A DNA stretch of 64,000 nucleotides from Candidatus Fibrimonadaceae bacterium (GTDB lineage Bacteria > Fibrobacterota > Fibrobacteria > Fibrobacterales > Fibrobacteraceae), in NCBI GenBank assembly GCA_031281265.1, contig JAITFO010000092.1, positions 17,132-81,131 of the forward strand, given 5' to 3'. The position numbers were made by a program, and so were the translations under genes. Below are positions 24,325-42,765 of this stretch, one piece after another (position 1 is the first letter of the stretch; every line of letters starts with the position of its first letter). The notes under the pieces were generated by a model that worked only from the letters and a program-made list of their open reading frames with translations, had not been told where the DNA came from and searched no databases.

Positions 24325-24337
24325 TTGTCAATTCTCC

Positions 24338-26927: not shown

Positions 26928-27946
26928 CTTAGCATGTTTTTGATTATTCTATAATGGTCGCCGCCGAATTTTGAGCGGATTTTGTCTATGTCTTTTAAAG
27001 GGAACCAAAAAGCGGCACTGGCATCGTCTGCGGCTTTGAGCTTTGGAAGCTCTGGCACCTGTAGGTCAAAGAAAAAGGTGTGGGAAATCATCCTGCCGCG
27101 AGGCTCCCTGTGAGGGTCGTCAAAAACGCGGTGGTCTTTTATGCTTTTGTCCAGTTCCTTGGGGCTAAGCTCTATCCCCGTTTCTTCAATAAGCTCCCTT
27201 ATGGCGCAATGCCTTATAGGTTCATTGCTGTCCAAAAAGCCACCAGCCATAGCGTATAGACCCTTGCCGGGGAAGGCTCCCCTTTCTATCAAAAGAATAT
27301 GCTCCTTGCAGATTACAAGGGCATCTCCAGCCACAAAAATAGGGGGGTAAGGCGTGGAAGCCCATTCTTTTTTGTACTCTTCTACCAGTCTATATTCCTC
27401 TTTTAAATTTTTTGCCCATTCCTCATTTTCTTTGCTTTTGAGGTAATTATAGACCGCCAGCGGGATATGTTCTTGGGTTAAGGTGCCGCTGAACCATTCT
27501 CTGCGAATTTCCGTGGAAGAAAGCCCGCCTTCCAAGAGCGGCATCTCCACAAATTCCCATTCGGGGAATAGGTCTAGGTAGTAGGAGGTGCTGTCTTTTT
27601 TGTGGCCTATTATGCCGATGGCGTGGGCGGGAAGGGCGACCGCGGCGGTTGTAGGGGCGACCGCGAGGGTCGCCCCTACAACCGCCCGCACCCATTCGGG
27701 GTGGTTGTAATTGGAATCGTGGATGGGGATGAAGGTTATCTTTTTTTGCTCTTCGGGGGTTAGGGCGATTTTGAACATCTCCAGCCGCTCTTCGGTTGTG
27801 AAGGGGTTGCGCAGGCTGCGGCACGTTTCGTGTGAGCCTATGAAAATTATTAGGTTTTCCGTTTGCTCCAAGGCTTTGCGGATTGTGGCAAAATGCCCGT
27901 TGTGAGGGGGTTCAAAACGGCCAATGTATATTAGGTGTGTATGCAT
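26924..27946 (-). CDS. nadM: Bifunctional nicotinamide-nucleotide adenylyltransferase / Nudix hydrolase (NadM-Nudix)
   Basis: 'IYIGRFEPPHNGH' nucleotidyltransferase motif and Nudix box 'GGFLDSNEPIRHCAIRELIEETG'. The start is placed at the ATG (M8 of the track ORF), because the upstream TTG lies inside a terminator hairpin. Confidence 0.85.
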   Translation of the reverse strand: MHTHLIYIGRFEPPHNGHFATIRKALEQTENLIIFIGSHETCRSLRNPFTTEERLEMFKIALTPEEQKKITFIPIHDSNYNHPEWVRAVVGATLAVAPTTAAVALPAHAIGIIGHKKDSTSYYLDLFPEWEFVEMPLLEGGLSSTEIRREWFSGTLTQEHIPLAVYNYLKSKENEEWAKNLKEEYRLVEEYKKEWASTPYPPIFVAGDALVICKEHILLIERGAFPGKGLYAMAGGFLDSNEPIRHCAIRELIEETGIELSPKELDKSIKDHRVFDDPHREPRGRMISHTFFFDLQVPELPKLKAADDASAAFWFPLKDIDKIRSKFGGDHYRIIKNMLS

Positions 27947-27949
27947 TGT

Positions 27950-27974
27950 ATAAAAGGGCGTATGCAATACGCCC
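27950..27974 (-). terminator. Probable terminator hairpin after the GH18-like gene
   Basis: The plus-strand stems are GGGCGTAT and ATACGCCC (27956-63 / 27967-74) with a 3-nt loop. A TTTTAT run follows on the minus strand. Confidence 0.5.
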
Positions 27975-29012
27975 CTACTTCTTTTTTTTGTAATCGATTT
28001 CGGGGCGCAAAACTTGGCCTATGGTTACTAATAACGAAACTATGGGCTCTCTGTGGTCTCCGGAAATATCGAAAGCGGCAACGCCACCATAGCCATTTTC
28101 CTTAACGGCTTCGGCAACCGCTTTAATGGAGGGGATGCCGTTGAAAACTATGGTTTCTTCTTCGTTGACGGCAACTTCGCTCTTTGAAGATTCGTCAAAA
28201 GTTACACTGTAGGCATCTTTTTTGTTGAATTTGCCCATAATGTCTTTATACGGCAAAGCACCCTCGTTGCCGGAGCCTGCCCCTTCGTGGGAAGAACCCA
28301 GCCCTTTTGCCTTGTAAAATGTTTTGCCATAGAATGGAACTATGGGCATCAATTTATTTCTAGGAACGCCAGCTTTTGCAAAAGCAGACAAAATATCAAG
28401 AACCTCAGCTGTGTTTGAATTTGGTTTAACCTTGGAGTCGCTTACCGATGCCTCGTCTGTGAACCATAAGGAAAGATTCTCTATTTTGCTGAAATCCGCA
28501 CCGGAAACCGCGCTTGCCAAAGACTCAACGCCAGGGATAGCAACACTCACAGAAAAACCAGCATTTGCAATTCCCGCCGCTTGCGAAAGCAATTTTGGCA
28601 GGTCTTTTGCGTCAATTGCGCCACCATCTATCTCAAAGGAATTAACGCCGTATTGCTGCTCAAATTTTTTAGCAGCTGATGCTAAATCACTCGCAGAAAC
28701 CCCTCTAACGGCGTCTTCCGCGCCTAGGCCACCTATTGCAACCGTAAGTTTAACCTTGGCATCTTTTGCCCGTTTTACCAAGTTCAAAAAATTTTCTTTG
28801 TCCGATTCGTCTGTAAAGAGCAACTCGGAGCCACTTGGCGATAGATAGCCGTAGCGAATTTCCGTCACTAAATGGTAGCGAACGTCCGAGGGCTTGAACT
28901 GCGCATATTGCGCCCAATGCGGGAAATATGCGACTACCCTGCCTTGGGCAAAAAGCGTAGCTACGCACAACAAAACAAAAAACGGCAAAAATTTATTCAT
29001 CGCAAACCTCAT
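27975..29012 (-). CDS. GH18-like (chitinase-fold) secreted protein lacking the catalytic DxxDxDxE Glu
   Basis: 'RVVAYFPHWAQY...IRYGYLS...KLTVAIGGLGAED' resembles the GH18 TIM barrel. The position of 'DGIDIDWE' reads 'NSFEIDGG'. Confidence 0.65.
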   Translation of the reverse strand: MRFAMNKFLPFFVLLCVATLFAQGRVVAYFPHWAQYAQFKPSDVRYHLVTEIRYGYLSPSGSELLFTDESDKENFLNLVKRAKDAKVKLTVAIGGLGAEDAVRGVSASDLASAAKKFEQQYGVNSFEIDGGAIDAKDLPKLLSQAAGIANAGFSVSVAIPGVESLASAVSGADFSKIENLSLWFTDEASVSDSKVKPNSNTAEVLDILSAFAKAGVPRNKLMPIVPFYGKTFYKAKGLGSSHEGAGSGNEGALPYKDIMGKFNKKDAYSVTFDESSKSEVAVNEEETIVFNGIPSIKAVAEAVKENGYGGVAAFDISGDHREPIVSLLVTIGQVLRPEIDYKKKK

Positions 29013-29776
29013 TGTGCTACATATATCTTTTCGTCGTTTTTATCCAAGCAAAAAGTATATCTGCCATAATCATAATAAGTTCCTCGCTTCTCCGCATGCT
29101 TTTCCTGATTTTTCTCTTCACCCTTATTCCCGTTGCAGTATTTATACGGCCTGCCATCGTAACGACCAAAGAAGTGATAGTGCTGCTCGATAAGAGTTGA
29201 ATTAAAAAGAAAATTTTCTAAATAACTTCTCGCTTCTCCCACTCCAGAAACTTCTGGAATAAATTGGCACATAGTTTTAATCACCGGTAAACCAATCTTG
29301 GTCGCTTCTGAATATGCTTCCAAACTATCTTTCAATTCACCCCAACCTTCGCTCCAGCAAGTCCCTATTACGCATTGCCAGCCTATTGTGTCCATTTTAT
29401 CCGTTGCTGGGTTGTATCTTACTATTGCTTTAGAATAATTGATGTTGTTGCCATATTTTCCAAAGCATCTATCATTTTTGTCCCAACTTTGCTCCGGGCA
29501 TTGCAAATAATCCACATAAACAGTTTTTGCAAAATCTAAATCACGCAAAATATTATTAACACAATATTTTATAGAATCTTTGTCTCCTCTTTTTCCATTA
29601 AGGTCTAAAACAATTTGGCTCATAGCTACATCGTTATTTATTTCTTTATACTCTTTCCAATTAAAATCACTTGGAAAATCTGCTTTAAGGGCTTCTTCAT
29701 TATCCATCGATAAATCTGCGCAAGAGCCTAGAAACAGAACCACAACAACGCATAAAAAAACATACATATTTTTCAT
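29009..29776 (-). CDS. Cys-rich lipoprotein, function unknown (255 aa)
   Basis: Lipobox 'LFLGSCAD' and ten further Cys residues. 4-nt overlap with the downstream gene. Confidence 0.6.
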   Translation of the reverse strand: MKNMYVFLCVVVVLFLGSCADLSMDNEEALKADFPSDFNWKEYKEINNDVAMSQIVLDLNGKRGDKDSIKYCVNNILRDLDFAKTVYVDYLQCPEQSWDKNDRCFGKYGNNINYSKAIVRYNPATDKMDTIGWQCVIGTCWSEGWGELKDSLEAYSEATKIGLPVIKTMCQFIPEVSGVGEARSYLENFLFNSTLIEQHYHFFGRYDGRPYKYCNGNKGEEKNQEKHAEKRGTYYDYGRYTFCLDKNDEKIYVAQ

Positions 29777-29785
29777 AAATCCTCC

Positions 29786-31873
29786 TTAAAAACCCACAGT
29801 TACCATTCCAGACATAATTAGTTTATCCAATATAATATCTTTTGCTACTCCGCTTTCGGTATAAGAAACAGTATTTGAAAGCGAAGCACCTTGCAAAGTG
29901 AAGTTTGCCCTTTCGCTTATTTTATATTGCGGACCGCCAATAATCAAAGTCTCGCTAGTTTTATTTACATTAAAAACATCTTTTACAATTACATAGGGAC
30001 TTTCAAACTCTTTTGCCAGTTGCTGGAAACCTCCTATCAAAGAAAGCCCTTTCCATATTCCCACTTTAAACCCAGCCATTATACGGTTTGTTTGAACGTT
30101 CAAAGAGTTCAAAGAATCCAAATTGATGTTTTCCCCTTTGTTCTGTTCATAAGAACCTGTAACCACCAAAGGTATGCTTAAATCTGCTAGGCGCGCCACA
30201 TTAACTTCCAAGCCACTGCCAACACGGGTGTATTTTGCACCTTCTTCAGCAGAAAACGTTCCAAATACTCCCCTAAAGCTCACAGATTTGTTCCACGTGA
30301 ATTTTAAGTCTGCATCTCCACCGCTTCTATTTGGAGTGGCGTAGCCATTAGGGAGCGCCATATTTACGGAAGGGTCTACTAAAGAAAATTTGCTGCGCTC
30401 CAAACGGGTATAGGTTTGCTGCGTATATGCATTGCGATAGTATTGCACAAGTTTATAGTTATTATCTAAACAAGCTGCCTGATAAAGAGAAATTGAAGAA
30501 CTATTTGAACCTTTAATACATAAAGAATTGGTTGCAAGCCCTTGCTTGCCACTAACTATTGATATGGCATTAAGAGGCAGGGTGTAATAAAGAGAGTAAT
30601 ACATATTTTCCAAAGAACCTGAACGGAATTGCTCTAAATTTTGTGCTAAATCCGCATCGCTGTTCAATATGGGCAAATTGGGCAAATATGCAGGTGTAGC
30701 CGCAAGCTCTGCTTCAAAATCCTTGTCTGTTTTCAAAAAAGTTCCCGAAAATTTTGCTTCAAAAGGATTTTCGTCATAAGAAACAAAGGCTCTCGCAAGC
30801 AAGGCGGCATTGGATGTCAATTCTTCAACCATCGAAAGTTTGTATCTAGGCTTAGTACTGGTAATTTTATAATATGGGTAATAATTTGGCTTGTTAGTGC
30901 CGGGTGATGTAACAGAGGGAACTTCATCAGGTATAGCAGCAAAATCCAAAGAGCTCTCTGTTATTGCCGCATCTCTTTTATGTTGCCACCAACTCCAACT
31001 AGATAAAGCATATTCAGCATCCACTCCAAAACTCACAGGGCCTTGCAACAACTGTTTGCTATTATAGCTCAATTCAAAACTCATAACATTATTTTTTTCG
31101 TAATCCAACGCATCGGCGGTATCGACAAGAGTATTTTTAAAAGAACTGCTGAATCTGTTAAAGGTGAAAACCTCATTTACTCCAAAATATATACCCTGCG
31201 TTTCAATGCCAAAACGAGCACCGGTAGAGAACCTATCTTTGCTTGGGTCAAAGTCAAAGGATATTCTATCTGATGCATCTGCAACTTTGCGGAGCCGCAC
31301 AACTGTTCCCTGCAAAAAAATCTTGTCAAACATGCCAGCAGACATTTGGTATTCCAAATTTAAACCCTGCAAAAGCCGCCTATTTGTGCCGTCTAAATAT
31401 CTCTCTTCCATCGCTTCTCTTTTTAAATCGACAAATATCTCCGGTTCCATGATGAATTCCGGCTCCGGTAGATAAATGGTGAGCGGAGTGTAGGCAAGGC
31501 GCATTGTTCCCAAATTGAATTTCAGCTTTTTATCCAATATATTGCCATCGTAGCTCCACCACCTGACTATGGGGGAATTATTGCCCTCGCGATATGCGGA
31601 CTGCCAATCTTTGTGAAAGCGCAAATCAAAAGTAGCTTTTGTTTCGTTGCTGGGGCGAACGGAGATGTTCAATAAAAAGTCGGTAAAAGCTGAATATTCA
31701 GAGACATCTGATGTATCGTAAGAAAGGGAAGAAGACAATATGCCACCCTTAGCATGGCCGTTCACAGCAAAACCAATTACATTTTCTTCTATGCTGTCTA
31801 GCGCAGCAGAAACCTGAGCAAAAGACATGCTGCAAAGCAAACCTAAAACTACTATTGCATATCTCATATTCAC
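29786..31873 (-). CDS. Large secreted OMP-like protein, paralog C (695 aa), family unknown
   Basis: Signal peptide 'LLCSMSFAQVSA' and a C-terminal '...MVTVGF' (terminal Phe). It shares long blocks with the 753-aa neighbour. Confidence 0.65.
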   Translation of the reverse strand: MNMRYAIVVLGLLCSMSFAQVSAALDSIEENVIGFAVNGHAKGGILSSSLSYDTSDVSEYSAFTDFLLNISVRPSNETKATFDLRFHKDWQSAYREGNNSPIVRWWSYDGNILDKKLKFNLGTMRLAYTPLTIYLPEPEFIMEPEIFVDLKREAMEERYLDGTNRRLLQGLNLEYQMSAGMFDKIFLQGTVVRLRKVADASDRISFDFDPSKDRFSTGARFGIETQGIYFGVNEVFTFNRFSSSFKNTLVDTADALDYEKNNVMSFELSYNSKQLLQGPVSFGVDAEYALSSWSWWQHKRDAAITESSLDFAAIPDEVPSVTSPGTNKPNYYPYYKITSTKPRYKLSMVEELTSNAALLARAFVSYDENPFEAKFSGTFLKTDKDFEAELAATPAYLPNLPILNSDADLAQNLEQFRSGSLENMYYSLYYTLPLNAISIVSGKQGLATNSLCIKGSNSSSISLYQAACLDNNYKLVQYYRNAYTQQTYTRLERSKFSLVDPSVNMALPNGYATPNRSGGDADLKFTWNKSVSFRGVFGTFSAEEGAKYTRVGSGLEVNVARLADLSIPLVVTGSYEQNKGENINLDSLNSLNVQTNRIMAGFKVGIWKGLSLIGGFQQLAKEFESPYVIVKDVFNVNKTSETLIIGGPQYKISERANFTLQGASLSNTVSYTESGVAKDIILDKLIMSGMVTVGF

Positions 31874-31876
31874 CTC

Positions 31877-34138
31877 TTAAAATTCCACATTGATGGTTGC
31901 TTCAAGAATGTTGCGTGAAAATTCATGCCTTAACTCCTTTTTCCCAGCTTCAGTTCCATTCACCACCAAATAATTTGGCAAATTCGTTCCCAAACTTATT
32001 TCCCCATTATCATTTACAAAACCGTTCAAGTCATAAGTGTTCTCCACGCTCATAACGCCATAGTTTACAGAAAGCCAAGCGTGAGGAGCTATGGTGTAAT
32101 CAATTCCAGCCATCCATTGGTTTTGCGCCGATTTAACAACAGGCATAATAGCAAAAGTTGTTACCGGAATGGTAGGAGGGCCGCCTTTTAAATTAGACGT
32201 TTGCGCTCTTTGAACATTTGCTCCTTCTGCGTTCAAATCTGAATTTATCTTCTGATAGCCAAATGCAAAGCCAAATCTTTTGTAAAATCTCCAATAAAAA
32301 CCGACGTTTGTAAAATCGCTGTTGAATTCAACTTTGCCAAAATCTTGAAATTCCTGTTCCTTTGCGCTTTGTTTGTAGCTACCGCTAAGTTCAACTCCAA
32401 AAGCACTAACTTTTGCGCCACCGCCAAATTCCGAGTATTGCGCACTCTTTGTTCTAGCAACGGCGTTGAGTTGCCCATAGTTTGCAAATAAACCCTTAAC
32501 TTCTATCAATTCATTCCAACTAACGGTTAAAACTTCTTGATAACCCTGACGATTAGAAGTTGCAAAACCGTTTGGCAAAGCCATTTGCAAATTTAGGTCG
32601 GAAAGTTCTTCTAAAAGGGCAAGTTCGGCACGTGTTAAAACAGAAGGGTTCCAAGAGGTTTTTGCATAAGGAGAGGCATTATAGCTCCTAGTTTGGTCAT
32701 TGCTAGAAGGTTCGCCCGGAGTAAGTGAAGGGTGCATGGGCGAATGTTTGGGCGTAAAGAAGTAAAGAGCGTCAAAAGAGGAATAAAGCGGTGAATAAAC
32801 CCCATATTTGCTCAAATTAAAATCTGTGTTGGTGCAATGTCCGTTAACCCTGCAACCAACGTCTTTATCGCTGTTCAATACCCTGCGAGCAAAGAAAGAT
32901 GGAGACTGCGCTACATTGTTAAACCACCCAGAATCGTTGCGGATAAAGGAAGTGGAAAGTACCGCATTTATATCGCCTTTGTAGCCTAAATCCATCTGCA
33001 TAAGGATGGCTTTGCCATCTTCTTGCCGGCTTATACTTTCTGTGATAGTCTTGCTGGCATCACTTGGGTCTGGTACAGAAATTAAATCATAAGCATCATC
33101 TTTAGACATGGCAAGTTCAGCGGTTAAATTTGCAACCAAGGAACTATTCCCCAGCAACCCAGCAACATCCGCTCCTGCCCTGATTGCAATAATAGAGGTT
33201 TTTTGCGGCAAGGAATCCAAAGTGTTGAGCAAAAACTCTTTGTCATAAGCATTCAATGGGCAACTAGGGCAAGAATAGGATTTGGAGGTGCCTTTGTCGT
33301 CAAAAATTGACAGATAAGTTCCGCCAATCAGCAGATTTTTATCAAGGGGCAACAATTCGATGTTTGTACCTATCAAGAATTTGTCAAAACGCCCTGCCTG
33401 TGTTGCACCCGGAATACCCTCGTTGGGGAGCATATTGCCCATAGCACCGCTTGCATCCAAATAACCAGCACGGCGGAGCCTAGCCATCAAAGCCTCAACG
33501 CGCAATTCGCCAAATGGCTCACCGAGCTGAGGACGGAACTGCAAATTGAAACCCTGCAAATTTCTCTGATTGTCTTGCAATAACGCTTCTTTTTGAGCCA
33601 TTTCCCTTTTGCGAGCAAAAATAGTCGGCTCGTACATAATATCGATACCGGGCATATAAAGGGTTAAAGGTGAATAAGACTGCCGGAAATCACCCACAAC
33701 CCAATAGAAACTCTCCCCCACGTTCCCCTCGATATTCATCCAAGGAACGCTTACCGTTGTAGAAGCAGCAGCAAAATATTCCTGCGCACCCGCACCCAAG
33801 CGTAAGAGCAAATTAGCGGTGATTATATCCCACGGGCGGAATTTGAAATTCAAATCAACTTGTACAAATTCAGAAATTTCGTGGTTTGGCATTCTATTCA
33901 TATAAGAGCCTTGATAACAATTAGCAGGGGGCGTTCCTGGAGGACATACCACGCTATTTGGTCTTTCGTCTGGGGAGTCAAAATAAGAATTAAAAGAAGC
34001 ACTGCGAACGGTTCCGCTTATTTCAAGCCCTTTGCGAGCATTAATATCTTCCACTCTATTCTCTATTTGCTCAGGGTCTTCAGTTGCAAAAACCAAAGAG
34101 CAAGAGGCTAAAACGGCAAAAATCAATTTTTTATTCAT
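31877..34138 (-). CDS. Large secreted OMP-like protein, paralog B (753 aa), family unknown
   Basis: Signal peptide 'VLASCSLVFATE' and a C-terminal '...TINVEF'. 'SPLTLYMPGIDIMYEPTIFARKREMAQKEALLQDNQRNLQGFNLQF' aligns with paralog C. Confidence 0.65.
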   Translation of the reverse strand: MNKKLIFAVLASCSLVFATEDPEQIENRVEDINARKGLEISGTVRSASFNSYFDSPDERPNSVVCPPGTPPANCYQGSYMNRMPNHEISEFVQVDLNFKFRPWDIITANLLLRLGAGAQEYFAAASTTVSVPWMNIEGNVGESFYWVVGDFRQSYSPLTLYMPGIDIMYEPTIFARKREMAQKEALLQDNQRNLQGFNLQFRPQLGEPFGELRVEALMARLRRAGYLDASGAMGNMLPNEGIPGATQAGRFDKFLIGTNIELLPLDKNLLIGGTYLSIFDDKGTSKSYSCPSCPLNAYDKEFLLNTLDSLPQKTSIIAIRAGADVAGLLGNSSLVANLTAELAMSKDDAYDLISVPDPSDASKTITESISRQEDGKAILMQMDLGYKGDINAVLSTSFIRNDSGWFNNVAQSPSFFARRVLNSDKDVGCRVNGHCTNTDFNLSKYGVYSPLYSSFDALYFFTPKHSPMHPSLTPGEPSSNDQTRSYNASPYAKTSWNPSVLTRAELALLEELSDLNLQMALPNGFATSNRQGYQEVLTVSWNELIEVKGLFANYGQLNAVARTKSAQYSEFGGGAKVSAFGVELSGSYKQSAKEQEFQDFGKVEFNSDFTNVGFYWRFYKRFGFAFGYQKINSDLNAEGANVQRAQTSNLKGGPPTIPVTTFAIMPVVKSAQNQWMAGIDYTIAPHAWLSVNYGVMSVENTYDLNGFVNDNGEISLGTNLPNYLVVNGTEAGKKELRHEFSRNILEATINVEF

Positions 34139-34156
34139 ATTTCACAGCCTCGCTTA

Positions 34157-36445
34157 TTAAAACCAAACCTTTGTTTCGGCTTGAAGATAGTGAACATTCC
34201 AATCATTCTGCGGCAAATTTTCATCTTTACTGGTCAAATATCTATAGCGAAAATGCAAACCCGCACGGGCGGCAAAATCCCAATCAAAACCAAAACCAAG
34301 AGAGGTATGCAAAATATTTATAGGAGAGAGCTTATAATCATAAACATTATTACCATGTCTATATAAATCGCTATAAGACCCAGGCTTAGGAACATTTAAT
34401 GAAAGTTCGGTATAAGCCTTTTCCGCACGGAACATTTCAAAACCAAAGATTAAAATCGCATGGAGTTTAGACGTGATGGCTATTGCAGGTTCCGACTGCA
34501 CAAACCAATTCCACATAAGCACGTCGCTGTCGTATTTATCCGTGTAAGCAACTGGAAGAAAGGATTTTGAAACACCCGAAAGTGCTGTGTATAATTGCAA
34601 CATTATGTTTCTATCCGTACCAAACCAATGCCCAATATCATAACCCATATCTATGGCTATAGTGGAATTCCATTTTACACTAGAGGGCATGCAATTTGTA
34701 TTTTCCACATCTACAGGATTGTAGAAATTGAACTGGGCGCAAAGAAAGGCATCTTCAACATTTTCGTAAGCAGCAAAAGCATCCCAAGTTTCACCATAAC
34801 CACTGCGCAGGCCTCCTCTTTGGTCGCCCAGCTTGAAGGCAGGGTTGCCCTGGCTTCCGGCTAATCTATAGGTATAGCGCCTTGGATCTCCATAGCCCGA
34901 ATCTGCGTTGAAAAAAGGCTTGTGCCTAGTCCAACTGGTGGAGGTCTCCCATAAATACCGCCCTGTCAAATTATATTTGAAATTTATTATATCCGCGCCT
35001 TCTTCCACCTGTTTGTGAATGCCGTATTGCACATCAAAACGCCCTCGGTCAAATTCAGGTTCCAACTTAACATTTGCGCCAACCATATTTGGCCCATAGC
35101 GAAAAGTTCCCGCGCCAACATAAAATTGGTCTTTGCGCCAAGATGCAACTCTGTCTGGGTTTGCCATTGAATAGGGTGAGTAAAAATCTTTTGGCAAATA
35201 GATAACTTCTAAGGTTATAGGTTCCCAATGCTTATCTTGAGCTTTTACATAAAGGCCAAAATTTTTCGCAGAAGGCGAAGAACTATTATCTTTGGCGTTG
35301 TAACATCTAAGCCCGCTATTGCAAGGTGGGGTGGTGTATATAGTTGTGGTATCGTCCCAACTGAGTGCTAAATCAAAAGACAAAAAGAATTGCGGAGTTA
35401 AATTGCCTTTTAAATCTATGGAGGCAACGCGCAGATTCTCAAACTTTAAGCTGCTATCCGGATATCTAAAAACAGGAGCATAATAAACATCTGATTCGTA
35501 TATCTGTTCTGGGTTAAAATCAATTCCCATATAATTTAAACCAACGGTTAAACTGGCTTGGTCAAAATCAATTTTCTCCTTTGCCAAACGCCAGCCCAAA
35601 ACATCGCCGCGATAGTCATAAGTGCCCACCATTGCAAGCTCGCTGTTATCCCTTGTGTTAAGGCGGAGTCCGTCTCTGGTTCCAATGTCCACGCTGTTTG
35701 GCTGCGAAAGCAATAATTGCCCTTTTAAATTCCACGGCAAAGTGTGTACATCCAAAAGCATTCCGCCAAAAGAACGGTTTGTCCAAAAAGACCTGCCTCC
35801 TTCTTTCACAGGCTTAAAGCCCTTTTCTTTGTAATAGGTGCTAACAACTTTTTCCTCTTCGTATAGTTCGTATTGAGAGATAAAGCGTGGGCTGGTTTCA
35901 CGTTCATACATGGTAAGCGGGCTTTGGGTGACCCAAATAACACCACCCATAAGCAAGGTTGCACCAAACTCCCCACCGCGCATATCCATGCCAACAAGCA
36001 TATTTTCGTTTATGGAAACCCCATAAAAATCAGTGGATGGATGGAAATATTGTACCCTTTCGCCAATATTGCCAAAATTTTCGGTATTGGGGGCAAAGGC
36101 TTGCCTGTTCACAAAAAATCCGCTGAAATCAAATGGCAAATAAAGGTTGGAAAACACGGTTAAATAAGATGCTGGAGAAATAACAATAGAAGCGTTTAGA
36201 GCAGAATTGACAAAGGTGCGCATACTCTCTTCGCCCTGCAAAGTACCAGTTTTAGAGTAATCAATATGGCCAAAGCGCACGGTGAAATCGCCGGAAACAG
36301 CAACGGGAGAATCGTCTTTACCTATAACCCCAGAGCCTGCATATTCTCCGAGCGAATCCAAACGGGCCTCTACCTGAGACAGGTCGCTTTGAGCGAATGC
36401 AAAAGACGCGAAAAAGAACAAACTGAATAAAATTTTTACTCTCAT
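34157..36445 (-). CDS. Large secreted OMP-like protein, paralog A (762 aa), family unknown
   Basis: The start is set at MRVKILFSLFFFASFAFAQS; the track's N-terminal extension overlaps the upstream gene. The C-terminus is '...AETKVWF'. There is a weaker 'QSPLTMYERE' block. Confidence 0.6.
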   Translation of the reverse strand: MRVKILFSLFFFASFAFAQSDLSQVEARLDSLGEYAGSGVIGKDDSPVAVSGDFTVRFGHIDYSKTGTLQGEESMRTFVNSALNASIVISPASYLTVFSNLYLPFDFSGFFVNRQAFAPNTENFGNIGERVQYFHPSTDFYGVSINENMLVGMDMRGGEFGATLLMGGVIWVTQSPLTMYERETSPRFISQYELYEEEKVVSTYYKEKGFKPVKEGGRSFWTNRSFGGMLLDVHTLPWNLKGQLLLSQPNSVDIGTRDGLRLNTRDNSELAMVGTYDYRGDVLGWRLAKEKIDFDQASLTVGLNYMGIDFNPEQIYESDVYYAPVFRYPDSSLKFENLRVASIDLKGNLTPQFFLSFDLALSWDDTTTIYTTPPCNSGLRCYNAKDNSSSPSAKNFGLYVKAQDKHWEPITLEVIYLPKDFYSPYSMANPDRVASWRKDQFYVGAGTFRYGPNMVGANVKLEPEFDRGRFDVQYGIHKQVEEGADIINFKYNLTGRYLWETSTSWTRHKPFFNADSGYGDPRRYTYRLAGSQGNPAFKLGDQRGGLRSGYGETWDAFAAYENVEDAFLCAQFNFYNPVDVENTNCMPSSVKWNSTIAIDMGYDIGHWFGTDRNIMLQLYTALSGVSKSFLPVAYTDKYDSDVLMWNWFVQSEPAIAITSKLHAILIFGFEMFRAEKAYTELSLNVPKPGSYSDLYRHGNNVYDYKLSPINILHTSLGFGFDWDFAARAGLHFRYRYLTSKDENLPQNDWNVHYLQAETKVWF

Positions 36446-36452
36446 GCAATCC

Positions 36453-37193
36453 TCACAACATATTGCGGAAAGGATAACCTTCCGGGCCTTTGTATTCTTC
36501 GCCAACCTTTTTAATAACTATATCGTCTATCCAAACCTTGAAAGCCTGATTTTCATCTTTACGCACCTCTATTCTAAAACCCTTTAAATTAGCCCAAGAG
36601 AAAGGCATAAAAACCTCTCTCCGGTTTTTGGAATCCCAATAAACGCCCATGTTCCCGAACAGCCTAAGGGGTATGCTTATCCTTTGCCATTCCGTTGTTA
36701 TATCGCCAAAGCTCTTGGAGCCTATTTTAACCTGCAAAGATTCTCCGTTGCTTTTAACTCCATCGTCTAAAAGCACGTATTGCGCAACTTCCCCGCCTTG
36801 AGCGCCCTTAATCCAAAATTCCAAAACGCCATCTTCAAGATAGGGAGTCACATCCTTGGAACCAGCTATACATATAGCAACACCGGAATAATCACTGGCT
36901 ATCAACTCTATTTCCATGGATAAATCGCCTTCCATAGCGTATTTGTCTGTCATGAATGGTTCTGGGTTTTCACGCGGATACTGGTAGGTGTAGCCTCCAC
37001 CTCTAGGTATTCTCTCACGCATAATAACAACCAAAACGTCTTGGTCTGCGTGGAAGGGCTTAATCTCTTTTTTTAGAAACCGTTCGGAATCGCGGTTTTT
37101 GTAAGTGTCAAAGGCGGCAGAAGCATCGGTAAAAAACAAAAACAGCGCCGCTAATGAAACTGCATAAGCTAATCTGCAATTCTTAGAAATCAT
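36453..37193 (-). CDS. Secreted protein with carbohydrate-binding-module-like beta-sandwich (246 aa)
   Basis: Signal peptide. 'LEFWIKGAQGG...WQRISIPLRLF...LKGFRIEVRKDENQAFKVWIDDIVI' resembles CBM/galactose-binding-like modules. This is inference only. Confidence 0.45.
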   Translation of the reverse strand: MISKNCRLAYAVSLAALFLFFTDASAAFDTYKNRDSERFLKKEIKPFHADQDVLVVIMRERIPRGGGYTYQYPRENPEPFMTDKYAMEGDLSMEIELIASDYSGVAICIAGSKDVTPYLEDGVLEFWIKGAQGGEVAQYVLLDDGVKSNGESLQVKIGSKSFGDITTEWQRISIPLRLFGNMGVYWDSKNRREVFMPFSWANLKGFRIEVRKDENQAFKVWIDDIVIKKVGEEYKGPEGYPFRNML

Positions 37194-37236: not shown

Positions 37237-38484
37237 TTATTTTTTAACGATTTTCAAAACTTTTGTCTGAGAACCCTGCCTAACAAGCAAAATATAGGTT
37301 CCGCTTTTCAGGTTCAAATCGGAGACAGAACGACCAGTTCCCAATTTTTTACCCTGCAAAGAGAAGATTTCAACAGAAACATCGCCCATATCTTGCAAAT
37401 TAACGGCAAGCGGCTTTATAGGAGACGGGCCATCTTTCCACGGCGCGTTTTGATAATACGCATTCAATTTGTCGAATATGTATTGCCCCGATGGAGTCAT
37501 TTTGGTTTTGTCTGCCCAACTCTCCATATCAAATTTCTTTGCCGCACCTTGAATACCAAAAAAACAGGAACCTTCATATTTATCGTTTATCTGCCAAGCA
37601 GCAGAAGATATTTTATTTTGGTCCATAAAGCTATGCCAGTCGTCAGAATTTTGGACATTGTGCGTATCGTAATTACTATTTTGCCCGCCATCTGCGTGAA
37701 CTGTGCCATATTCGGTCACAAAAAGAGGCACGTTGCCGTTAAGCGCAGCGTTTATGTTATTCCGAAAACTGTTCAAAGGATGGGTGTGAGCATAAAAATG
37801 CAAAACATAACCCACATTTCCATCTAGCTTATTGCCTGCAACATCCTGAACTCTTTGAGACCATTGAGGCGTGCCTACGAGAATGAGGTTGCTGGAATAT
37901 GCACGTATTACAGGGATAATTTGCTCCGCATAGCTTTTTATCTCTGCCCAGTTTATTCTATCTGCGGCAGCACAGTTGGTAGTGCCATCTCTGCAAACAG
38001 GCTCATTGTAAATCTCAAAAATCACATTATCATAAGAACCGTATTTTTGCGCCATATAATCAAAAAAATCCTTTGACTGTTGGATTTCGTTATGTGCTTT
38101 ATGCGAATGCCAATCTATAATCACATAGACATCGTTTGCTATGGCTCCGTCCACTATGCGCTCTACGCCGGCACGGTTTGTGGCAGCATCTGTGCTGGTA
38201 AAAGCAGAACTAGTTGCGCCATAAGCAGCTCTCACAACCTCTGCCTTCCAGTCTTTTACCATGTGCTCCACAGCAGTGGCTGCATTAGCGGCTTGATAAA
38301 AGCGGCCGCTTTCCCAGCTTGTGTTGCTCCAGCCAAAACTCACTCCTCTAACTTGCACCGGAGTGTCACCTGTTTTTGAACCGATTATCTTGTTTCCGCT
38401 GGCTTCAAGTTTGCCGTAGTAAGAAACGGGACCCGCTACAGCAAAGGAAAGACTAAGCCAAAGAATTGCGATTAAAAATTTCAT
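37237..38484 (-). CDS. GH5 endo-beta-1,4-glucanase with T9SS-type C-terminal sorting domain
   Basis: 'VRGVSFGWSNTSW', acid/base 'IFEIYNEP' and nucleophile 'LFVTEYGT'. The C-terminus reads 'VEIFSLQGKKLGT...GTYILLVRQGSQTKVLKIVKK'. Confidence 0.9.
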   Translation of the reverse strand: MKFLIAILWLSLSFAVAGPVSYYGKLEASGNKIIGSKTGDTPVQVRGVSFGWSNTSWESGRFYQAANAATAVEHMVKDWKAEVVRAAYGATSSAFTSTDAATNRAGVERIVDGAIANDVYVIIDWHSHKAHNEIQQSKDFFDYMAQKYGSYDNVIFEIYNEPVCRDGTTNCAAADRINWAEIKSYAEQIIPVIRAYSSNLILVGTPQWSQRVQDVAGNKLDGNVGYVLHFYAHTHPLNSFRNNINAALNGNVPLFVTEYGTVHADGGQNSNYDTHNVQNSDDWHSFMDQNKISSAAWQINDKYEGSCFFGIQGAAKKFDMESWADKTKMTPSGQYIFDKLNAYYQNAPWKDGPSPIKPLAVNLQDMGDVSVEIFSLQGKKLGTGRSVSDLNLKSGTYILLVRQGSQTKVLKIVKK

Positions 38485-38573
38485 GTGTCCTCCAAATTAG
38501 TGATATCTCTTCAATATAGTTATTTCACAGCAGAGCCATACCCTCAAGCTCAAAAACCGAATTTTTATGCAAT

Positions 38574-39477: not shown

Positions 39478-39514
39478 AATCTATCTCCAGTGGTTAGGAA
39501 AATATAGAAAATGG

Positions 39515-41731
39515 TCAATTTACAACCCTCAACGTTTTAACTTGTGAACCTTGGCTTAAACGCAAAATATAAACACCCTTTTGCAGATTAAGGCTACCGA
39601 GCGAAACCTGCTTTGGGCCGGCGTTTTGATGCCCACTGAGCAAGCTGCCCAGCTTTTTGCCAGAAAGCGAATAGACATCCAATTTTGCAACACCGCTCTG
39701 CGCAAGATAAAGCTCTATTTTTCCAGAACCCATTGCAACCAAACCCATGCTTTTGGTGCTGCTGAATTGCTGTATAGCACTAGGAGGTGTTCCGGGTATT
39801 TCTGTTGGTGCCGTAACATCAATGTCAGAACCGTTGCCCGTTAGCTTTATGTTTGCTCTTCCTGTATTTGAATTAACAGTCCCGTCTGTTATAATCCCGA
39901 GCAACACAACAGTCCCTGTTTTGTCTGCGGCTGGAGTATAAACATATTCTTTATCGCTCACCTTTGCCAAAGTTCCGGGATACCTAGGGTCTAAATACAC
40001 GGTTACAAACGATAAATCATCTTCATCTCTATCCCTGCCATTGAACTGAGAGATTCCAATAGTAACAGGGCTTGTGTTTGGCGCGTTTCCACAGCAGGAG
40101 TTTGTTGCGCTGACATTTATTGTGGGAGCAAGGTTTTGAATATTCAAAGTAACGTTTTGAGTACTGCTCTGCGGAGGGGTCTTGCTATTTTTAACGGTAT
40201 AGGTAAGCGTGGCTTCAGTAAAAGCAGCATTGGCAAGAGCAGCGGCCGGAGTGAAAGTGATGGTATCATTCCATCTTCCAGAAACAACAACCGTTCCAAC
40301 AGAAGGCGGCGAAATAGAAACAGCCGAAAGCTCAATAGTTGAACCCGTGGGGTCAGAAGCATTTAGTTGATTAAACATGCTCAAATAGGTTTTGGCTTTG
40401 CGGCTCACGTCAATAGGGTCTCTATCCGGCAAAATTGGACCTCTGTTGGTTATTGTCACCACAACTTTGCTCTGAATGGTAATGCCACCTTGTTCCACTT
40501 TATATATAAACTTAACTTTATCCTTTGGCGCACCAGAGACTCTGTATGTAATGCTCTTGCCTGCATCTGTAATTGTAGCTGTGCCAAATGCAGGAGTGCT
40601 AACCTCTGTGATAGTTCCAGTTAAACCTAAGGTGGTTGCATTCAGCACAAGGTCTTTTCCATCATCAACGCTTGTTATAACATCTTTGCCTCTGGGATGA
40701 TTGCTTGGTATATACGAATCCCATTTCTTTTTGGTCATATAAGTTTTAAAATAGTTGCCAGAGCCTGTCAATTTACTTGCATCAAGAGATGAGGAACCCA
40801 TATTTGTGGGAAAAAAGGAAGAACCTTCGCTTAAGTTACTCGCATTCCACATGCAGTTGCTAATATTATTATCGTCCATCCAACTTGTCCACGGGTCTGT
40901 TGCCCCAGCGTTTGAAGAGCCATTGCCATCGTAATTAACCGAACCCCACTCGGAACCAAAAACCGCATTGCCTGCAGTCCTTGCATCTTGCGCACTTTTG
41001 CCTATGTTATCGCCATTTGGAAAACCATGTGAAGCCGCATAAAAATGAAAGGTAAAAGCAACATTATTATCTTTTGAACCCCAATCTGCAGCTTGCTCCT
41101 TTGGCTTTTTGGAATAATTGGGGCTGCCTATAAGCACTAAATTATTGTTGCCTGCTGCGCGGAGCGCAGTTACAATTGTATTTGCATGGGAGGTTACTTG
41201 AGTTTCGGAGGCACTAATAGGCTCGTTATACACTTCCCAAATCAAATTAGGAACGCCGGGATATTCGTTAGCCATCCACACAAAAAAATCCTTTGCGCTT
41301 TGGGTTTCGTTGTGAGCTTGGTGGGAATGCCAATCAACTATCACGTATATATCGTTTTCTATGGCTGCATCCACCACTGCCTTCATTAAACCCTTTTGAA
41401 TGTCTGGCTTAAAGTAATAGCCCCAATAATTTGTGCCAGCTTTGTTTATCTCTTCAGAACTTTCCTTAAAATAACGAATTGCCATTGCAGCGCGGATAAC
41501 GCCTATTTGCATATTATCAACAAACCAGTCCACGGTTGTGGAATTGTAGAAGGGACCACCCGAACCTTCGCTCCAATAGAGGCTTGGCCCTTTGACCATA
41601 ATTGGAATTGATGTTCCGGTTTTTTCACCGCAGATATTATTGCCACAGCGCTTAAGCGCACCAAAATGGCTAACCGGGCCTGCTAAAGCCTGAGTCGCGA
41701 ACAACAGAAATGCAAATACAAGGATTTTCAT
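39515..41731 (-). CDS. GH5 endoglucanase + Ig-like/cadherin-like repeat region + T9SS C-terminal sorting domain (738 aa)
   Basis: 'IWEVYNEP' and 'VFGSEWGS' catalytic Glu contexts, a central beta-rich repeat region ('TITDAGKSITYRV', 'TLTYTVKN'), and a C-terminal 'LDVYSLSGKKLGS...GVYILRLSQGSQVKTLRVVN'. Confidence 0.9.
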   Translation of the reverse strand: MKILVFAFLLFATQALAGPVSHFGALKRCGNNICGEKTGTSIPIMVKGPSLYWSEGSGGPFYNSTTVDWFVDNMQIGVIRAAMAIRYFKESSEEINKAGTNYWGYYFKPDIQKGLMKAVVDAAIENDIYVIVDWHSHQAHNETQSAKDFFVWMANEYPGVPNLIWEVYNEPISASETQVTSHANTIVTALRAAGNNNLVLIGSPNYSKKPKEQAADWGSKDNNVAFTFHFYAASHGFPNGDNIGKSAQDARTAGNAVFGSEWGSVNYDGNGSSNAGATDPWTSWMDDNNISNCMWNASNLSEGSSFFPTNMGSSSLDASKLTGSGNYFKTYMTKKKWDSYIPSNHPRGKDVITSVDDGKDLVLNATTLGLTGTITEVSTPAFGTATITDAGKSITYRVSGAPKDKVKFIYKVEQGGITIQSKVVVTITNRGPILPDRDPIDVSRKAKTYLSMFNQLNASDPTGSTIELSAVSISPPSVGTVVVSGRWNDTITFTPAAALANAAFTEATLTYTVKNSKTPPQSSTQNVTLNIQNLAPTINVSATNSCCGNAPNTSPVTIGISQFNGRDRDEDDLSFVTVYLDPRYPGTLAKVSDKEYVYTPAADKTGTVVLLGIITDGTVNSNTGRANIKLTGNGSDIDVTAPTEIPGTPPSAIQQFSSTKSMGLVAMGSGKIELYLAQSGVAKLDVYSLSGKKLGSLLSGHQNAGPKQVSLGSLNLQKGVYILRLSQGSQVKTLRVVN

Positions 41732-42738: not shown

Positions 42739-42765
42739 AGGATAAAAAAAGCCCTAGTTTATAAA

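What the first reader, a model, noticed from the sequence alone, without database searches (positions are those of the whole stretch)
27975..37193. Six-gene operon built around three paralogous giant OMP-like proteins of no family I can name, with CBM-like, Cys-rich lipoprotein and dead-GH18 partners, directly downstream of the cellulases
What the sequence shows: six minus-strand genes are packed with gaps of 7, 18, 3 and 9 nt and one 4-nt overlap. A hairpin follows at 27956-27974. The three large products (762, 753 and 695 aa) each have a signal peptide and end in an aromatic residue (…TKVWF, …INVEF, …VTVGF), like the beta-signal of outer-membrane barrels. The 753-aa and 695-aa proteins are clearly paralogous. 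'SPLTLYMPGIDIMYEPTIFARKREMAQKEALLQDNQRNLQGFNLQF' aligns with 'TPLTIYLPEPEFIMEPEIFVDLKREAMEERYLDGTNRRLLQGLNLEY', and 'MALPNGFATSNRQG' aligns with 'MALPNGYATPNRSG'. The 762-aa protein keeps only a weaker 'QSPLTMYERE' block. I see no TonB box or plug, no POTRA domain, and no SusC/SusD, LptD or FadL signatures. The partners are a secreted CBM-like beta-sandwich, a lipoprotein with 10 Cys, and a GH18-fold protein with the catalytic motif mutated. Two GH5 cellulases sit immediately upstream on the same strand. Inference: Fibrobacter degrades cellulose without cellulosomes or SusCD-type PULs, and its outer-membrane substrate-capture and uptake machinery is unresolved. This operon is a plausible candidate for an outer-membrane glycan-binding/uptake or surface-anchoring complex.
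Basis: partly seen in the sequence, partly recalled or inferred. Interest (0 to 1): 0.78.

Follow-up and report, generated by a model that had tools for sequence, protein, structure and literature searches.

The report
Fibrobacterota outer-membrane barrel–CBM30 glycan cassette
A six-gene operon in a termite-gut Fibromonadaceae genome encodes three giant outer-membrane barrels of unnamed families, a CBM30 cellulose-binding protein, a lipoprotein and a catalytically dead chitinase-like protein; it is conserved in all 75 complete loci from the 80 related genomes recovered, and is the best candidate yet for how these cellulose specialists capture and import sugar chains across the outer membrane.

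Summary
Six tightly packed minus-strand genes (27975-37193) end in a terminator hairpin. The same order, CBM30 / barrel A / barrel B1 / barrel B2 / lipoprotein / GH18-like, occurs in all 75 complete loci among 80 Fibrobacterota genomes.

- Only the 753- and 695-aa barrels are demonstrable paralogues (hhalign E 3e-40). The 762-aa barrel is a separate family that shares the fold class, one short motif and an N-terminal helix.
- The flanking cellulases are not a fixed part of the unit.
- The F. succinogenes S85 counterparts (Fisuc_1525-1530 = FSU_2007-2012) are not cellulose-induced. They are constitutive, very highly expressed, and found in outer-membrane fractions.

AlphaFold models (pLDDT 66, pTM 0.65-0.71) match only generic outer-membrane barrels. 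There is no plug, no Pfam family and no PDB relative.

New evidence: distant relatives keep a core of barrel A plus barrel B, usually with a CBM30-like protein. This core sits beside ABC sugar importers and GH9, GH20, GH10/GH3 or active GH18 genes.

Best reading (about 0.5): a TonB-independent outer-membrane complex that captures and imports glycans. It is analogous to SusCD or glycoporins but is not a member of those families. Function is inferred, not shown.

The parts
36453..37193 (-). CBM30-like secreted protein (246 aa, type I signal peptide). It is the first gene of the cassette and its most conserved component.
   Evidence: Pfam CBM30 7.5e-16, 59 bits against a cut-off of 27. PDB 1wmx/2c24 CBM30 E 3e-6. 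67-89% identity across 80 genomes. E 1e-35 to 7e-64 to the CBM30 (lipo)proteins next to distant barrel pairs.
34157..36445 (-). Barrel A (762 aa): outer-membrane beta-barrel of an unnamed family restricted to Fibrobacterota and a few remote relatives. The C-terminus is E-T-K-V-W-F.
   Evidence: No Pfam, NCBIfam or PDB hit. AlphaFold pLDDT 65.7, pTM 0.71. Foldseek matches only outer-membrane barrels, E about 1e-9, TM 0.27-0.33. Only 119 hits in 1.84 billion representatives. 100% identical to MAG protein LBC64_09500.
31877..34138 (-). Barrel B1 (753 aa): outer-membrane beta-barrel with about 22 predicted strands. It has large conserved insertions after predicted strands 5 and 13.
   Evidence: AlphaFold pLDDT 66.7, pTM 0.65, 22 long strands. 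Foldseek matches FimD, MtrB, MOMP and AlgE barrels. 29 of 54 family members give weak OMP_b-brl hits and 13 of 54 give Porin_4 hits.
29786..31873 (-). Barrel B2 (695 aa from GTG; the NCBI call is 693 aa from the ATG at 31867). It is a paralogue of B1.
   Evidence: BLASTP E 2e-25. hhalign probability 100%, E 2.7e-40. 100% identical to LBC64_09490.
29009..29776 (-). Lipoprotein (255 aa, lipobox LGSC, 10 Cys). The acidic N-terminus after the lipidated Cys is conserved, followed by a P-x-D-F motif.
   Evidence: A candidate ORF lies between B2 and GH18 in all 75 complete loci; 63 of 75 match a strict lipobox pattern and the rest show a Cys at the same position. Cys count is 9-15 in Fibromonadales and 3-9 (mostly 3-7) in Fibrobacter. 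No Pfam hit.
27975..29012 (-). GH18-fold pseudo-enzyme (345 aa, chi-lectin-like). It overlaps the lipoprotein gene by 4 nt.
   Evidence: Pfam GH18 2.2e-22. The catalytic Glu is absent here (FEIDGG) and in all 75 orthologues (DGG, DWQ, DW[MIVT]).
27956..27974 (-). Intrinsic-terminator-like hairpin that closes the operon.
   Evidence: GGGCGTAT-TGC-ATACGCCC followed by TTTTAT on the minus strand.
37237..38484 (-). GH5 cellulase with a T9SS C-terminal sorting domain, 43 nt upstream. It is a neighbour, not part of the conserved core.
   Evidence: Pfam Cellulase 1.4e-48 and TIGR04183 3.2e-7. Its presence and orientation vary between lineages.
39515..41731 (-). GH5 cellulase with Big_9/cadherin domains and a T9SS tail. 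It is a neighbour, not part of the core.

Best explanation
The six genes encode one outer-membrane complex that captures beta-glucan chains or cello-oligosaccharides at the cell surface and passes them across the outer membrane without TonB.

Proposed parts:
- Two kinds of large plug-less beta-barrels form the membrane core: type A (762 aa) and type B, duplicated here into 753- and 695-aa copies. Their long conserved loops after strands 5 and 13 line or cap the channels.
- The CBM30-like protein and the catalytically dead GH18 (a chi-lectin-like binder) are the glycan-binding subunits.
- The lipoprotein tethers or assembles them.

The products then reach periplasmic binding proteins of ABC importers. 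The complex is made constitutively at high level because these organisms live on little else.

Shown here: gene organisation, conservation, barrel fold class, CBM30 membership, loss of the GH18 catalytic residue, and genomic linkage to ABC importers and glycoside hydrolases in relatives. Taken from the literature: outer-membrane localisation and constitutive expression of the S85 counterparts.

Inferred: that the proteins form one complex, its stoichiometry, which side of the membrane the soluble subunits face, and transport itself.
For: 1. Barrels. All three have signal peptides and an invariant C-terminal Phe. The AlphaFold models have pTM 0.65 and 0.71 and match only outer-membrane barrels in the PDB with Foldseek probability 1.0. 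B-family members give OMP_b-brl and Porin_4 hits.

2. One selected unit. The order CBM30-A-B1-B2-lipoprotein-GH18 is present in all 75 complete loci of 80 species-level genomes. It also holds in a second cassette type with different flanks.

3. Binding subunits. The first gene is a true CBM30. The GH18 fold lacks its catalytic Glu in 76 of 76 sequences. Its counterpart FSU_2012 is listed as cellulose-binding protein CBP-9 (PMC3079729; PMC6851124).

4. Deep core and its context.
- Chitinispirillum (L085): A + B + CBM30 lipoprotein, beside an SBP_bac_5 ABC importer.
- Cellulosispirillum (L089): the same arrangement.
- L086: GH9, then a five-gene ABC importer, then A + B + CBM30-like lipoprotein.
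- L087: SBP_bac_1 and two permeases, then A after a 25-nt gap, then B and a CBM30/CBM11 lipoprotein.
- L088: GH20 + CBM30 + A + B.
- L090 (remote): A + B + two lipoproteins + GH10 + GH3.
- L092 (remote): GH18 with intact DIDWE + A + B + two lipoproteins.

5. Literature on S85.
- Fisuc_1526-1528 were found in outer-membrane and extracellular fractions and not in the periplasm. Fisuc_1529 was found only in the outer membrane (PMC4668043 Table S3).
- All six proteins are in the envelope proteome (PMC6851124).
- Fisuc_1525-1530 have mean rlog 10.1-11.9 with CV 1.5-2% under all conditions. The paper places Fisuc_1530, at rlog 11.65, above the 90th percentile (PMC6204037).
Against: - No experiment links any of these proteins to transport.
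- The models are of moderate confidence (mean pLDDT about 66). Barrel closure, strand number and pore occlusion could not be inspected.
- No complex prediction was possible.
- The CBM30 and GH18-like proteins have ordinary signal peptides and no known route to the cell surface.
- In S85 the proteins are slightly lower or unchanged on cellulose against glucose (-1.3 to +1.1 fold).
- The ABC importers next to distant relatives are of families that also carry peptides.
- Orthology of FSU_2008-2010 to the three barrels rests on synteny and locus numbering. It was not checked by direct sequence comparison.
Confidence: 0.5

Rival explanations
1. Adhesion or anchoring platform only. The barrels are membrane anchors that display the CBM30-like and GH18-like binders, and perhaps the lipoprotein, on the surface. 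This attaches the cell or its vesicles to cellulose, and nothing is transported.
For: FSU_2007 and FSU_2012 are reported as cellulose-binding envelope proteins. The barrels and GH18 appear in both outer-membrane and extracellular (vesicle) fractions. By general knowledge of the organism, adhesion is obligatory for cellulose degradation in Fibrobacter. Among the Foldseek hits are barrels that hold or thread partner proteins, such as MtrB and the FimD usher.
Against: Two or three barrels of at least about 22 strands are far more than an anchor needs. In distant relatives the barrel pair is operonic with inner-membrane sugar importers and with enzymes that act on soluble oligosaccharides, GH20 and GH3. 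Expression is the same on glucose as on cellulose.
Confidence: 0.2
2. Major structural or general-diffusion outer-membrane proteins of the phylum. They would be porin-like or envelope-stabilising, and the CBM30 and GH18-like partners would serve envelope or glycan-layer maintenance rather than nutrient acquisition.
For: Expression is very high, constitutive and independent of growth rate. The proteins are abundant in envelope proteomes. Some B-family members give weak Porin_4 or OMP_b-brl hits. Raut et al. linked lower GH18 'chitinase' levels to peptidoglycan turnover.
Against: General porins do not normally travel with a CBM and glycoside hydrolases. The pair recurs next to different hydrolases and importers in different lineages, which is the pattern of substrate-specific loci. 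The GH18 has no catalytic acid, so it cannot turn over peptidoglycan or chitin.
Confidence: 0.15
3. Export or surface-assembly channel. The barrels would secrete or display a polymer or proteins, for example glycoproteins, capsule or non-T9SS surface proteins, in the manner of AlgE, ushers or MtrB.
For: The best Foldseek matches include the FimD/PapC ushers, AlgE and MtrB. The CBM30-like and GH18-like proteins need some route to the surface.
Against: TM-scores are low (0.25-0.34) and equally good for importers such as TonB-dependent receptor barrels and porins. No chaperone, pilin, cytochrome, Wza or glycosyltransferase partner is conserved in the 80 loci. The adjacent transporters in relatives are importers with solute-binding proteins.
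Confidence: 0.08

Closest known systems
SusC/SusD-type polysaccharide utilisation loci of Bacteroidota (TonB-dependent transporter, SusD lipoprotein, surface glycan-binding lipoproteins and glycoside hydrolases)
   Same: The locus logic is the same: outer-membrane barrel(s), lipoprotein(s), a non-catalytic glycan binder and hydrolases. The core recurs with different hydrolase families in different loci, and the organisms belong to the FCB group. This is what the system most plausibly works like.
   Different: There is no plug domain, TonB box or TonB_dep_Rec hit, and no SusD-like lipoprotein. The core is two unrelated-looking barrels (A + B) instead of one barrel plus a SusD lid. Expression is constitutive rather than substrate-induced. 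It is not a member of this family.
Sugar-specific porins (LamB maltoporin, ScrY, chitoporin ChiP, CymA)
   Same: These are TonB-independent passive channels for oligosaccharides that feed periplasmic binding proteins of ABC importers. Chitoporin and general porins are among the Foldseek hits. The conserved loop after strand 5 recalls the porin L3 constriction loop; this is an inference from strand parity.
   Different: Those proteins are 14-18-stranded, 350-450 aa, homotrimeric or monomeric, and have no dedicated CBM or lectin partners. The barrels here are 695-762 aa with at least about 22 predicted strands, come as an obligatory A + B pair, and have no Pfam LamB or OprB hit.
Cytophaga hutchinsonii chu_1276-chu_1280 cellulose-utilisation cluster
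   Same: It is an outer-membrane protein cluster in a non-cellulosomal, contact-dependent cellulose degrader of the FCB group. It is needed for cellulose or cello-oligosaccharide use and includes a cellulose-binding surface protein (title and abstract of PMC12016534, seen).
   Different: According to that abstract, the Cytophaga cluster contains an SGBP-B-like component. No sequence relationship to it was tested here.
F. succinogenes S85 FSU_2007-FSU_2012 (Fisuc_1525-1530)
   Same: This is the same cassette by synteny: CBM30 'cellulose-binding protein', one uncharacterised protein, two 'membrane proteins', a putative lipoprotein and a GH18 'chitinase' (CBP-9).
   Different: These genes appear only as entries in proteomic and transcriptomic tables. 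In the papers searched, none treats them as a unit, models the barrels, notes that the GH18 is catalytically dead, or proposes a function for the barrels.
Chi-lectins (catalytically inactive GH18 proteins such as YKL-40 and Ym1)
   Same: They have the GH18 TIM-barrel fold with the catalytic Glu replaced, and they act as glycan binders. PDB hits include chitinase-like proteins 3/4 and Ym1.
   Different: This one is bacterial, operon-encoded with outer-membrane barrels, and reported to bind cellulose rather than chitin. That report comes from the literature and was not tested here.

Membership tests
Outer-membrane beta-barrel proteins (general class) | N-terminal signal peptide, C-terminal beta-signal ending in an aromatic residue, and a closed antiparallel barrel | tested here: met
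   Signal peptides are visible in the sequences. The terminal F is kept in 118-119 of 120 homologues per family. The AlphaFold models are strand-rich and Foldseek gives probability 1.0 to many outer-membrane barrels. Barrel closure itself could not be inspected.
TonB-dependent transporters / SusC | N-terminal plug domain (PF07715) with a TonB box, and a 22-strand TonB_dep_Rec barrel (PF00593) | tested here: not met
   No Pfam or NCBIfam hit at E <= 0.1 for the window proteins or E <= 0.05 for 147 family members. The first predicted strand starts at residue 37-48, which leaves no room for a plug of about 150 aa.
SusD-like lipoproteins | SusD/RagB TPR-like fold (PF07980, PF12771, PF14322) | tested here: not met
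   The 255-aa lipoprotein has no Pfam or NCBIfam hit. Its structure was not predicted.
Classical or sugar-specific porins (Porin_1/4, LamB, OprB) | 16-18-strand barrel of about 350-450 aa, a family HMM match, and a homotrimer | tested here: inconclusive
   The window proteins have no hit. 13 of 54 B1-family members hit Porin_4 weakly (best 9.6e-6) and 29 of 54 hit OMP_b-brl. Size and strand number (about 22 or more) do not fit. Oligomeric state cannot be tested with these tools.
CBM30 | Match to the CBM30 model above the curated cut-off, and similarity to solved CBM30 structures | tested here: met
   PF21582 scores 59 bits against a cut-off of 27. 1wmx and 2c24 match at E 3e-6. Cellulose binding of this protein was not tested; the S85 counterpart is listed as a cellulose-binding protein.
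GH18 chitinases (active enzymes) | GH18 TIM barrel and a DxxDxDxE motif with the catalytic Glu | tested here: not met
   The fold is met (PF00704, 80.5 bits). The motif reads N-S-F-E-I-D-G-G, so Glu is replaced by Gly. The Glu is absent in all 75 orthologues. The protein is therefore a pseudo-enzyme.
Chaperone-usher, AlgE or MtrB-type export barrels | Family HMM (Usher PF00577, Alginate_exp PF13372, MtrB) together with cognate partners (chaperone and pilins, alginate genes, or decahaem cytochromes) | tested here: not met
   There are no Pfam hits. No such partner genes occur in the window or in the loci whose gene calls were examined (L001-L004, L085-L092); the tblastn survey of the 80 loci used only the window's own proteins as queries. 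The Foldseek similarity is generic, with TM 0.25-0.34.
T9SS outer-membrane components, BamA, LptD and FadL | Family HMMs, including POTRA for BamA | tested here: not met
   There are no Pfam or NCBIfam hits. Only the neighbouring GH5 enzymes carry T9SS sorting tails.

The most novel reading that the evidence does not exclude
The A + B barrel pair is the core of a previously unrecognised, TonB-independent type of outer-membrane glycan-import apparatus. It would be a heteromeric two-barrel 'PUL-like' system with its own CBM30-type surface binders. It would be ancestral to Fibrobacterota, where it specialised for cellulose through B-barrel duplication and the addition of a chi-lectin. It is also present in remote form in other, still unidentified bacteria, next to xylanase and chitinase genes. 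In Fibrobacter it would be the missing outer-membrane cellodextrin gate.
Probability: 0.35. Interest if true: 0.85.

Novelty: new variant of a known kind. Interest (0 to 1): 0.74.

Why it matters
Fibrobacter and its termite-gut relatives are among the most effective cellulose degraders known. They have no cellulosome and no SusCD system. How cellulose chains or cellodextrins are held at the outer membrane and cross it has been an open question for decades.

This cassette gives a concrete candidate that is conserved across the phylum and highly expressed:
- two new barrel families;
- an unusually conserved CBM30 subunit;
- a dead GH18 lectin.

The comparative evidence yields clear predictions about complex formation, sugar-specific conductance and uptake defects.

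If the two-barrel module proves to be a general alternative to SusCD, it would add a new class of glycan importer. It would also give a new marker for finding polysaccharide-utilisation loci in genomes where SusCD searches find nothing.

Tried and rejected
1. Sequence homology of the 762-aa barrel to the other two. BLASTP and hhalign aligned only the signal peptide and N-terminal helix. None of the 119 hits to the barrel-A profile in 1.84 billion representatives is a B-family member. I therefore rejected 'three paralogues' and kept only a motif-level link.

2. Assignment to a solved or curated family. Profile searches of the PDB, Pfam and NCBIfam on the window proteins and on 147 family members gave nothing specific.

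3. Foldseek. It returned only generic barrels with low TM-scores, so no family could be inferred.

4. Cellulose-induced operon co-regulated with the cellulases. Rejected from the S85 transcriptome and proteome and from the variable cellulase positions.

5. Lipoprotein as a fragment of the large CBM30 lipoproteins of Chitinispirillales. There was no similarity.

6. Direct retrieval of the S85 sequences or names through cluster look-ups. These returned only 'hypothetical protein' entries from other Fibrobacter genomes.

7. Jun et al. 2007 (PMC2045214) is not held in the library. Its content is cited only second-hand.

8. Exact look-up of the window's own contig failed.

9. The taxon of the remote loci L086-L088, L090 and L092 could not be determined.


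Full report
**1. What is in the window**

Six minus-strand ORFs occupy 27975-37193. They encode:
- a 246-aa protein (36453-37193);
- a 762-aa protein (34157-36445, ATG start, identical to the NCBI call LBC64_09500);
- a 753-aa protein (31877-34138);
- a 695-aa protein (29786-31873; NCBI starts it two codons later, LBC64_09490);
- a 255-aa protein (29009-29776);
- a 345-aa protein (27975-29012).

The gaps are 7, 18, 3 and 9 nt, with one 4-nt overlap. A perfect 8-bp stem (GGGCGTAT/ATACGCCC) followed by TTTTAT comes straight after the last stop codon. The window derives from a Fibromonadaceae metagenome-assembled genome, presumably from termite gut. It is not Fibrobacter itself.

**2. The small partners**

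The 246-aa protein is a genuine CBM30. Pfam PF21582 scores 59 bits against a cut-off of 27, and the solved C. thermocellum CBM30 (1wmx) matches at E 3e-6. It has a type I signal peptide.

The 255-aa protein has a lipobox (LGSC) and 10 Cys.

The 345-aa protein has the full GH18 fold (80.5 bits). Its DxxDxDxE motif reads N-S-F-E-I-D-G-G, so the catalytic Glu is Gly. I extracted 75 orthologues from related genomes and none has the Glu. Fibromonadales have DGG. Fibrobacter has DWQ or DW[M/I/V/T]. This is therefore a conserved pseudo-enzyme of the chi-lectin kind, not a decayed gene.

A candidate ORF fills the lipoprotein position in all 75 loci. Sixty-three of them match a strict lipobox pattern, and the others show a Cys at the same position. 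The stretch after the Cys is acidic and ends in P-x-D-F. The high Cys count (9-15) is specific to Fibromonadales; Fibrobacter has 3-9, mostly 3-7.

**3. The three large proteins**

None matches any Pfam or NCBIfam model or any PDB sequence, even with family profiles.

The 753- and 695-aa proteins are clear paralogues. BLASTP gives E 2e-25 with 23% identity over about 630 residues. hhalign gives probability 100%, E 2.7e-40.

The 762-aa protein is not detectably related to them. BLASTP finds nothing. Profile-profile comparison aligns only the signal peptide and a short N-terminal helix. None of the 119 proteins that its family profile finds among 1.84 billion representatives belongs to the other family. 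I therefore call it barrel A, and the paralogues barrels B1 and B2.

A [ST]-P-[LF]-[TS]-x-[YWF] motif occurs exactly once at residues 125-195, just after predicted strand 5. It is present in both families and in all distant members examined except the remote barrel A of L090. My rough estimate of its chance occurrence is about 0.005 per protein. It points to very old common ancestry or to a shared functional element.

**4. Fold**

The AlphaFold2 models were built on 54- and 37-sequence alignments:
- barrel B1: mean pLDDT 66.7, pTM 0.65, with 22 long strands;
- barrel A: mean pLDDT 65.7, pTM 0.71, with roughly 24-28 strand segments.

Foldseek against the PDB returns only outer-membrane barrels of many unrelated families: FimD/PapC ushers, MtrB, AlgE, Campylobacter MOMP, TonB-dependent receptor barrels, porins and chitoporin. 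E-values are about 1e-9 to 1e-6 and TM-scores only 0.2-0.34. So the fold class is supported but no family is.

Independent sequence support:
- the C-terminal Phe is kept in 118-119 of 120 homologues per family;
- weak OMP_b-brl hits occur in 29 of 54 B1-family members and Porin_4 hits in 13 of 54.

The first strand begins at residue 37-48, so there is no plug domain.

The least confidently modelled segments are among the most conserved in sequence. These are residues 155-190 and 402-530 of B1, which include SPLTLY...EP.IF, NSDKD, KYGVYSPLYS.FDALYFFTPKHSP and MALPNGFATSNR.G. By strand parity they are extracellular loops 3 and 7. That assignment is an inference.

**5. Conservation**

A profile-guided scan of one genome per species found 121 loci that encode barrel-A relatives, and the best 80 were kept. 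All are Fibrobacterota apart from six bins with obviously wrong titles.

tblastn with the window's proteins shows the order CBM30 / A / B1 / B2 / (lipoprotein) / GH18 in every locus long enough to contain it. The lineages covered include Fibromonadales, Fibrobacter, Hallerella and environmental groups.

The CBM30-like protein is the most conserved component, at 67-89% identity. Barrel A is at 43-79%, B1 at 35-71% and B2 at 33-68%.

The GH5 cellulases are not fixed. They lie upstream in Fibromonadales and some Fibrobacter, and downstream on the other strand in others. A second cassette type (L091) is preceded by spermine-synthase-like, YceG and M24 peptidase genes. The same trio lies about 8 kb upstream in the window. 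The cellulases and a few other genes therefore look inserted between that trio and the cassette.

**6. Deeper relatives and their neighbourhoods**

This is the key new evidence. Barrel A has a small set of distant full-length relatives of 750-980 aa. They include proteins of Chitinispirillum alkaliphilum (CHISP_0849) and Cellulosispirillum alkaliphilum. In every context I could retrieve, barrel A is followed directly by a single B-type barrel. Profile E-values for those B barrels range from 1e-13 to 1e-90.

| Locus | Arrangement |
|---|---|
| L085, L089 (Chitinispirillales) | A + B + lipoprotein with two tandem CBM30-like modules; next to a five-gene SBP_bac_5 ABC importer |
| L086 | GH9; SBP_bac_5 ABC importer; then A + B + CBM30-like lipoprotein |
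| L087 | SBP_bac_1 + two permeases; A after a 25-nt gap; B; CBM30/CBM11 lipoprotein |
| L088 | GH20; CBM30; A; B |
| L090 (remote, taxon unknown) | A + B + two lipoproteins + GH10 + GH3 |
| L092 (remote, taxon unknown) | GH18 with intact DIDWE + A + B + two lipoproteins |

The ancestral unit is thus barrel A plus barrel B plus a surface-type binder. It is embedded in loci for importing and trimming oligosaccharides. In the Fibrobacteria lineage B was duplicated, the CBM30 protein lost its lipid anchor, and a separate lipoprotein and a dead GH18 were added.

**7. What is already known**

In F. succinogenes S85 the only stand-alone CBM30 protein is Fisuc_1525/FSU_2007. One of two GH18 genes is Fisuc_1530/FSU_2012, listed as 'cellulose binding', CBP-9 (PMC3079729; PMC6851124). 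By the universal synteny, Fisuc_1526-1529 / FSU_2008-2011 are the three barrels and the lipoprotein. Their annotations are 'uncharacterized protein', 'membrane protein' (twice) and 'putative lipoprotein'. This assignment is inferred and was not checked by alignment.

Published data on these genes:
- All six proteins are in the envelope proteome. Cellulose/glucose ratios lie between -1.3 and +1.1.
- Fisuc_1526-1528 were found in outer-membrane and extracellular fractions and not in the periplasm. Fisuc_1529 was found only in the outer membrane. Fisuc_1530 was in the outer membrane and medium. Fisuc_1525 was in the medium (PMC4668043 Table S3).
- Across cellulose, cellobiose and glucose chemostats, Fisuc_1525-1530 have mean rlog expression of 11.35, 11.85, 11.65, 11.87, 10.13 and 11.65, with CV 1.5-2.0%, all in the same cluster. 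The neighbours Fisuc_1524 (about 0) and Fisuc_1531 (8.5, CV 7.7%) differ. The paper places Fisuc_1530 above the 90th percentile (PMC6204037).

The cassette is therefore a separate, constitutive, very highly expressed transcription unit. None of the papers found treats it as a unit or proposes a function for the barrels.

**8. Interpretation**

The most economical reading is an outer-membrane complex for glycan capture and uptake. The barrels form TonB-independent channels. The CBM30-like and chi-lectin-like proteins bind beta-glucan chains. The lipoprotein assembles or tethers them. The products feed ABC importers.

It works like a SusCD utilisome or a glycoporin with accessory binders, but it fails every membership test for those families.

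The rivals cannot be excluded. An adhesion platform without transport, a major structural or general porin set, and an export or display channel each explain part of the evidence. Each fits the recurrent linkage to importers and to oligosaccharide-active enzymes less well.

**9. Limits**

- The models are of moderate confidence and I could not inspect their coordinates.
- No multimer prediction was available.
- The taxonomy of five distant loci is unknown.
- The S85 orthology is by synteny.
- All functional statements are inferences from context and from other people's omics tables.

Noticed in passing
window 15061-25999 (minus strand): This stretch holds a TonB C-terminal domain protein (15061-16005), ExbD (16499-17377), ExbB (17390-18022), a 1290-aa TPR/YfiO-like protein (18120-21992), a 769-aa TPR protein (22015-24324) and a 553-aa beta-helix + OmpA protein (24338-25999). 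It is the same TPR/OmpA/ExbB set that F. succinogenes papers place in the surface 'cellulolytic complex'. Only a NUDIX/cytidylyltransferase gene (26924-27967) separates it from the cassette.
   Followed up: partly
window 37237-50049: Spermine-synthase-like (47098-50049), YceG (46024-47070) and M24 peptidase (45236-45994) genes directly precede the cassette in locus L091. In the window about 8 kb lies in between. That segment holds a SocA/Panacea antitoxin-like gene (44586-45296), a T9SS-tail protein (42823-44169), two GH5 cellulases and ORFs of 292, 212 and 91 aa with no family. It looks like a secondary insertion of the cellulases.
   Followed up: partly
L033, L038, L039, L040, L042, L043: Genome records titled Alistipes onderdonkii, Senegalimassilia, Eggerthellaceae, Sodaliphilus, Oscillospiraceae and Methanomethylophilaceae archaeon carry a typical Fibrobacter cassette at 47-48% identity with full synteny. 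These bins are almost certainly mislabelled.
   Followed up: no
window 34157-36445, 31877-34138 and 29786-31873 (N-termini): Straight after the signal peptide, all three barrels have a short predicted helix with a related sequence: VEARLDSLGEY, IENRVEDINA and SALDSIEENV. The distant A and B barrels have it too. It could be a periplasmic coiled-coil or oligomerisation element.
   Followed up: no
L090:7001-15768 and L092:6486-13702: Remote barrel A + barrel B pairs (profile E 1e-13 to 1e-21) are followed by two unannotated lipoproteins. They sit next to GH10 + GH3 in L090, and next to a GH18 with an intact DIDWE motif in L092. Both contigs have about 37% GC and are of unknown taxon. This may be a wider class of non-SusCD glycan loci.
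   Followed up: partly
homologues P0033/P0177/P0299 and P0092/P0342 (locus tags LBQ87_0944x-0945x and LBQ87_0442x): One Candidatus Fibromonas MAG carries two copies of the cassette, with the second type about 50-60% identical to the window's proteins. So the cassette has duplicated within Fibromonadales. L091 shows that the second type keeps all six genes.
   Followed up: partly
L085:14429-15760, L086:12998-15352, L087:12689-15970, L089:13527-16655: In Chitinispirillales and related loci the CBM30-like partner is a lipoprotein of 443-1093 aa. It has two tandem copies of the module, at about residues 57-225 and 260-430.
   Followed up: no
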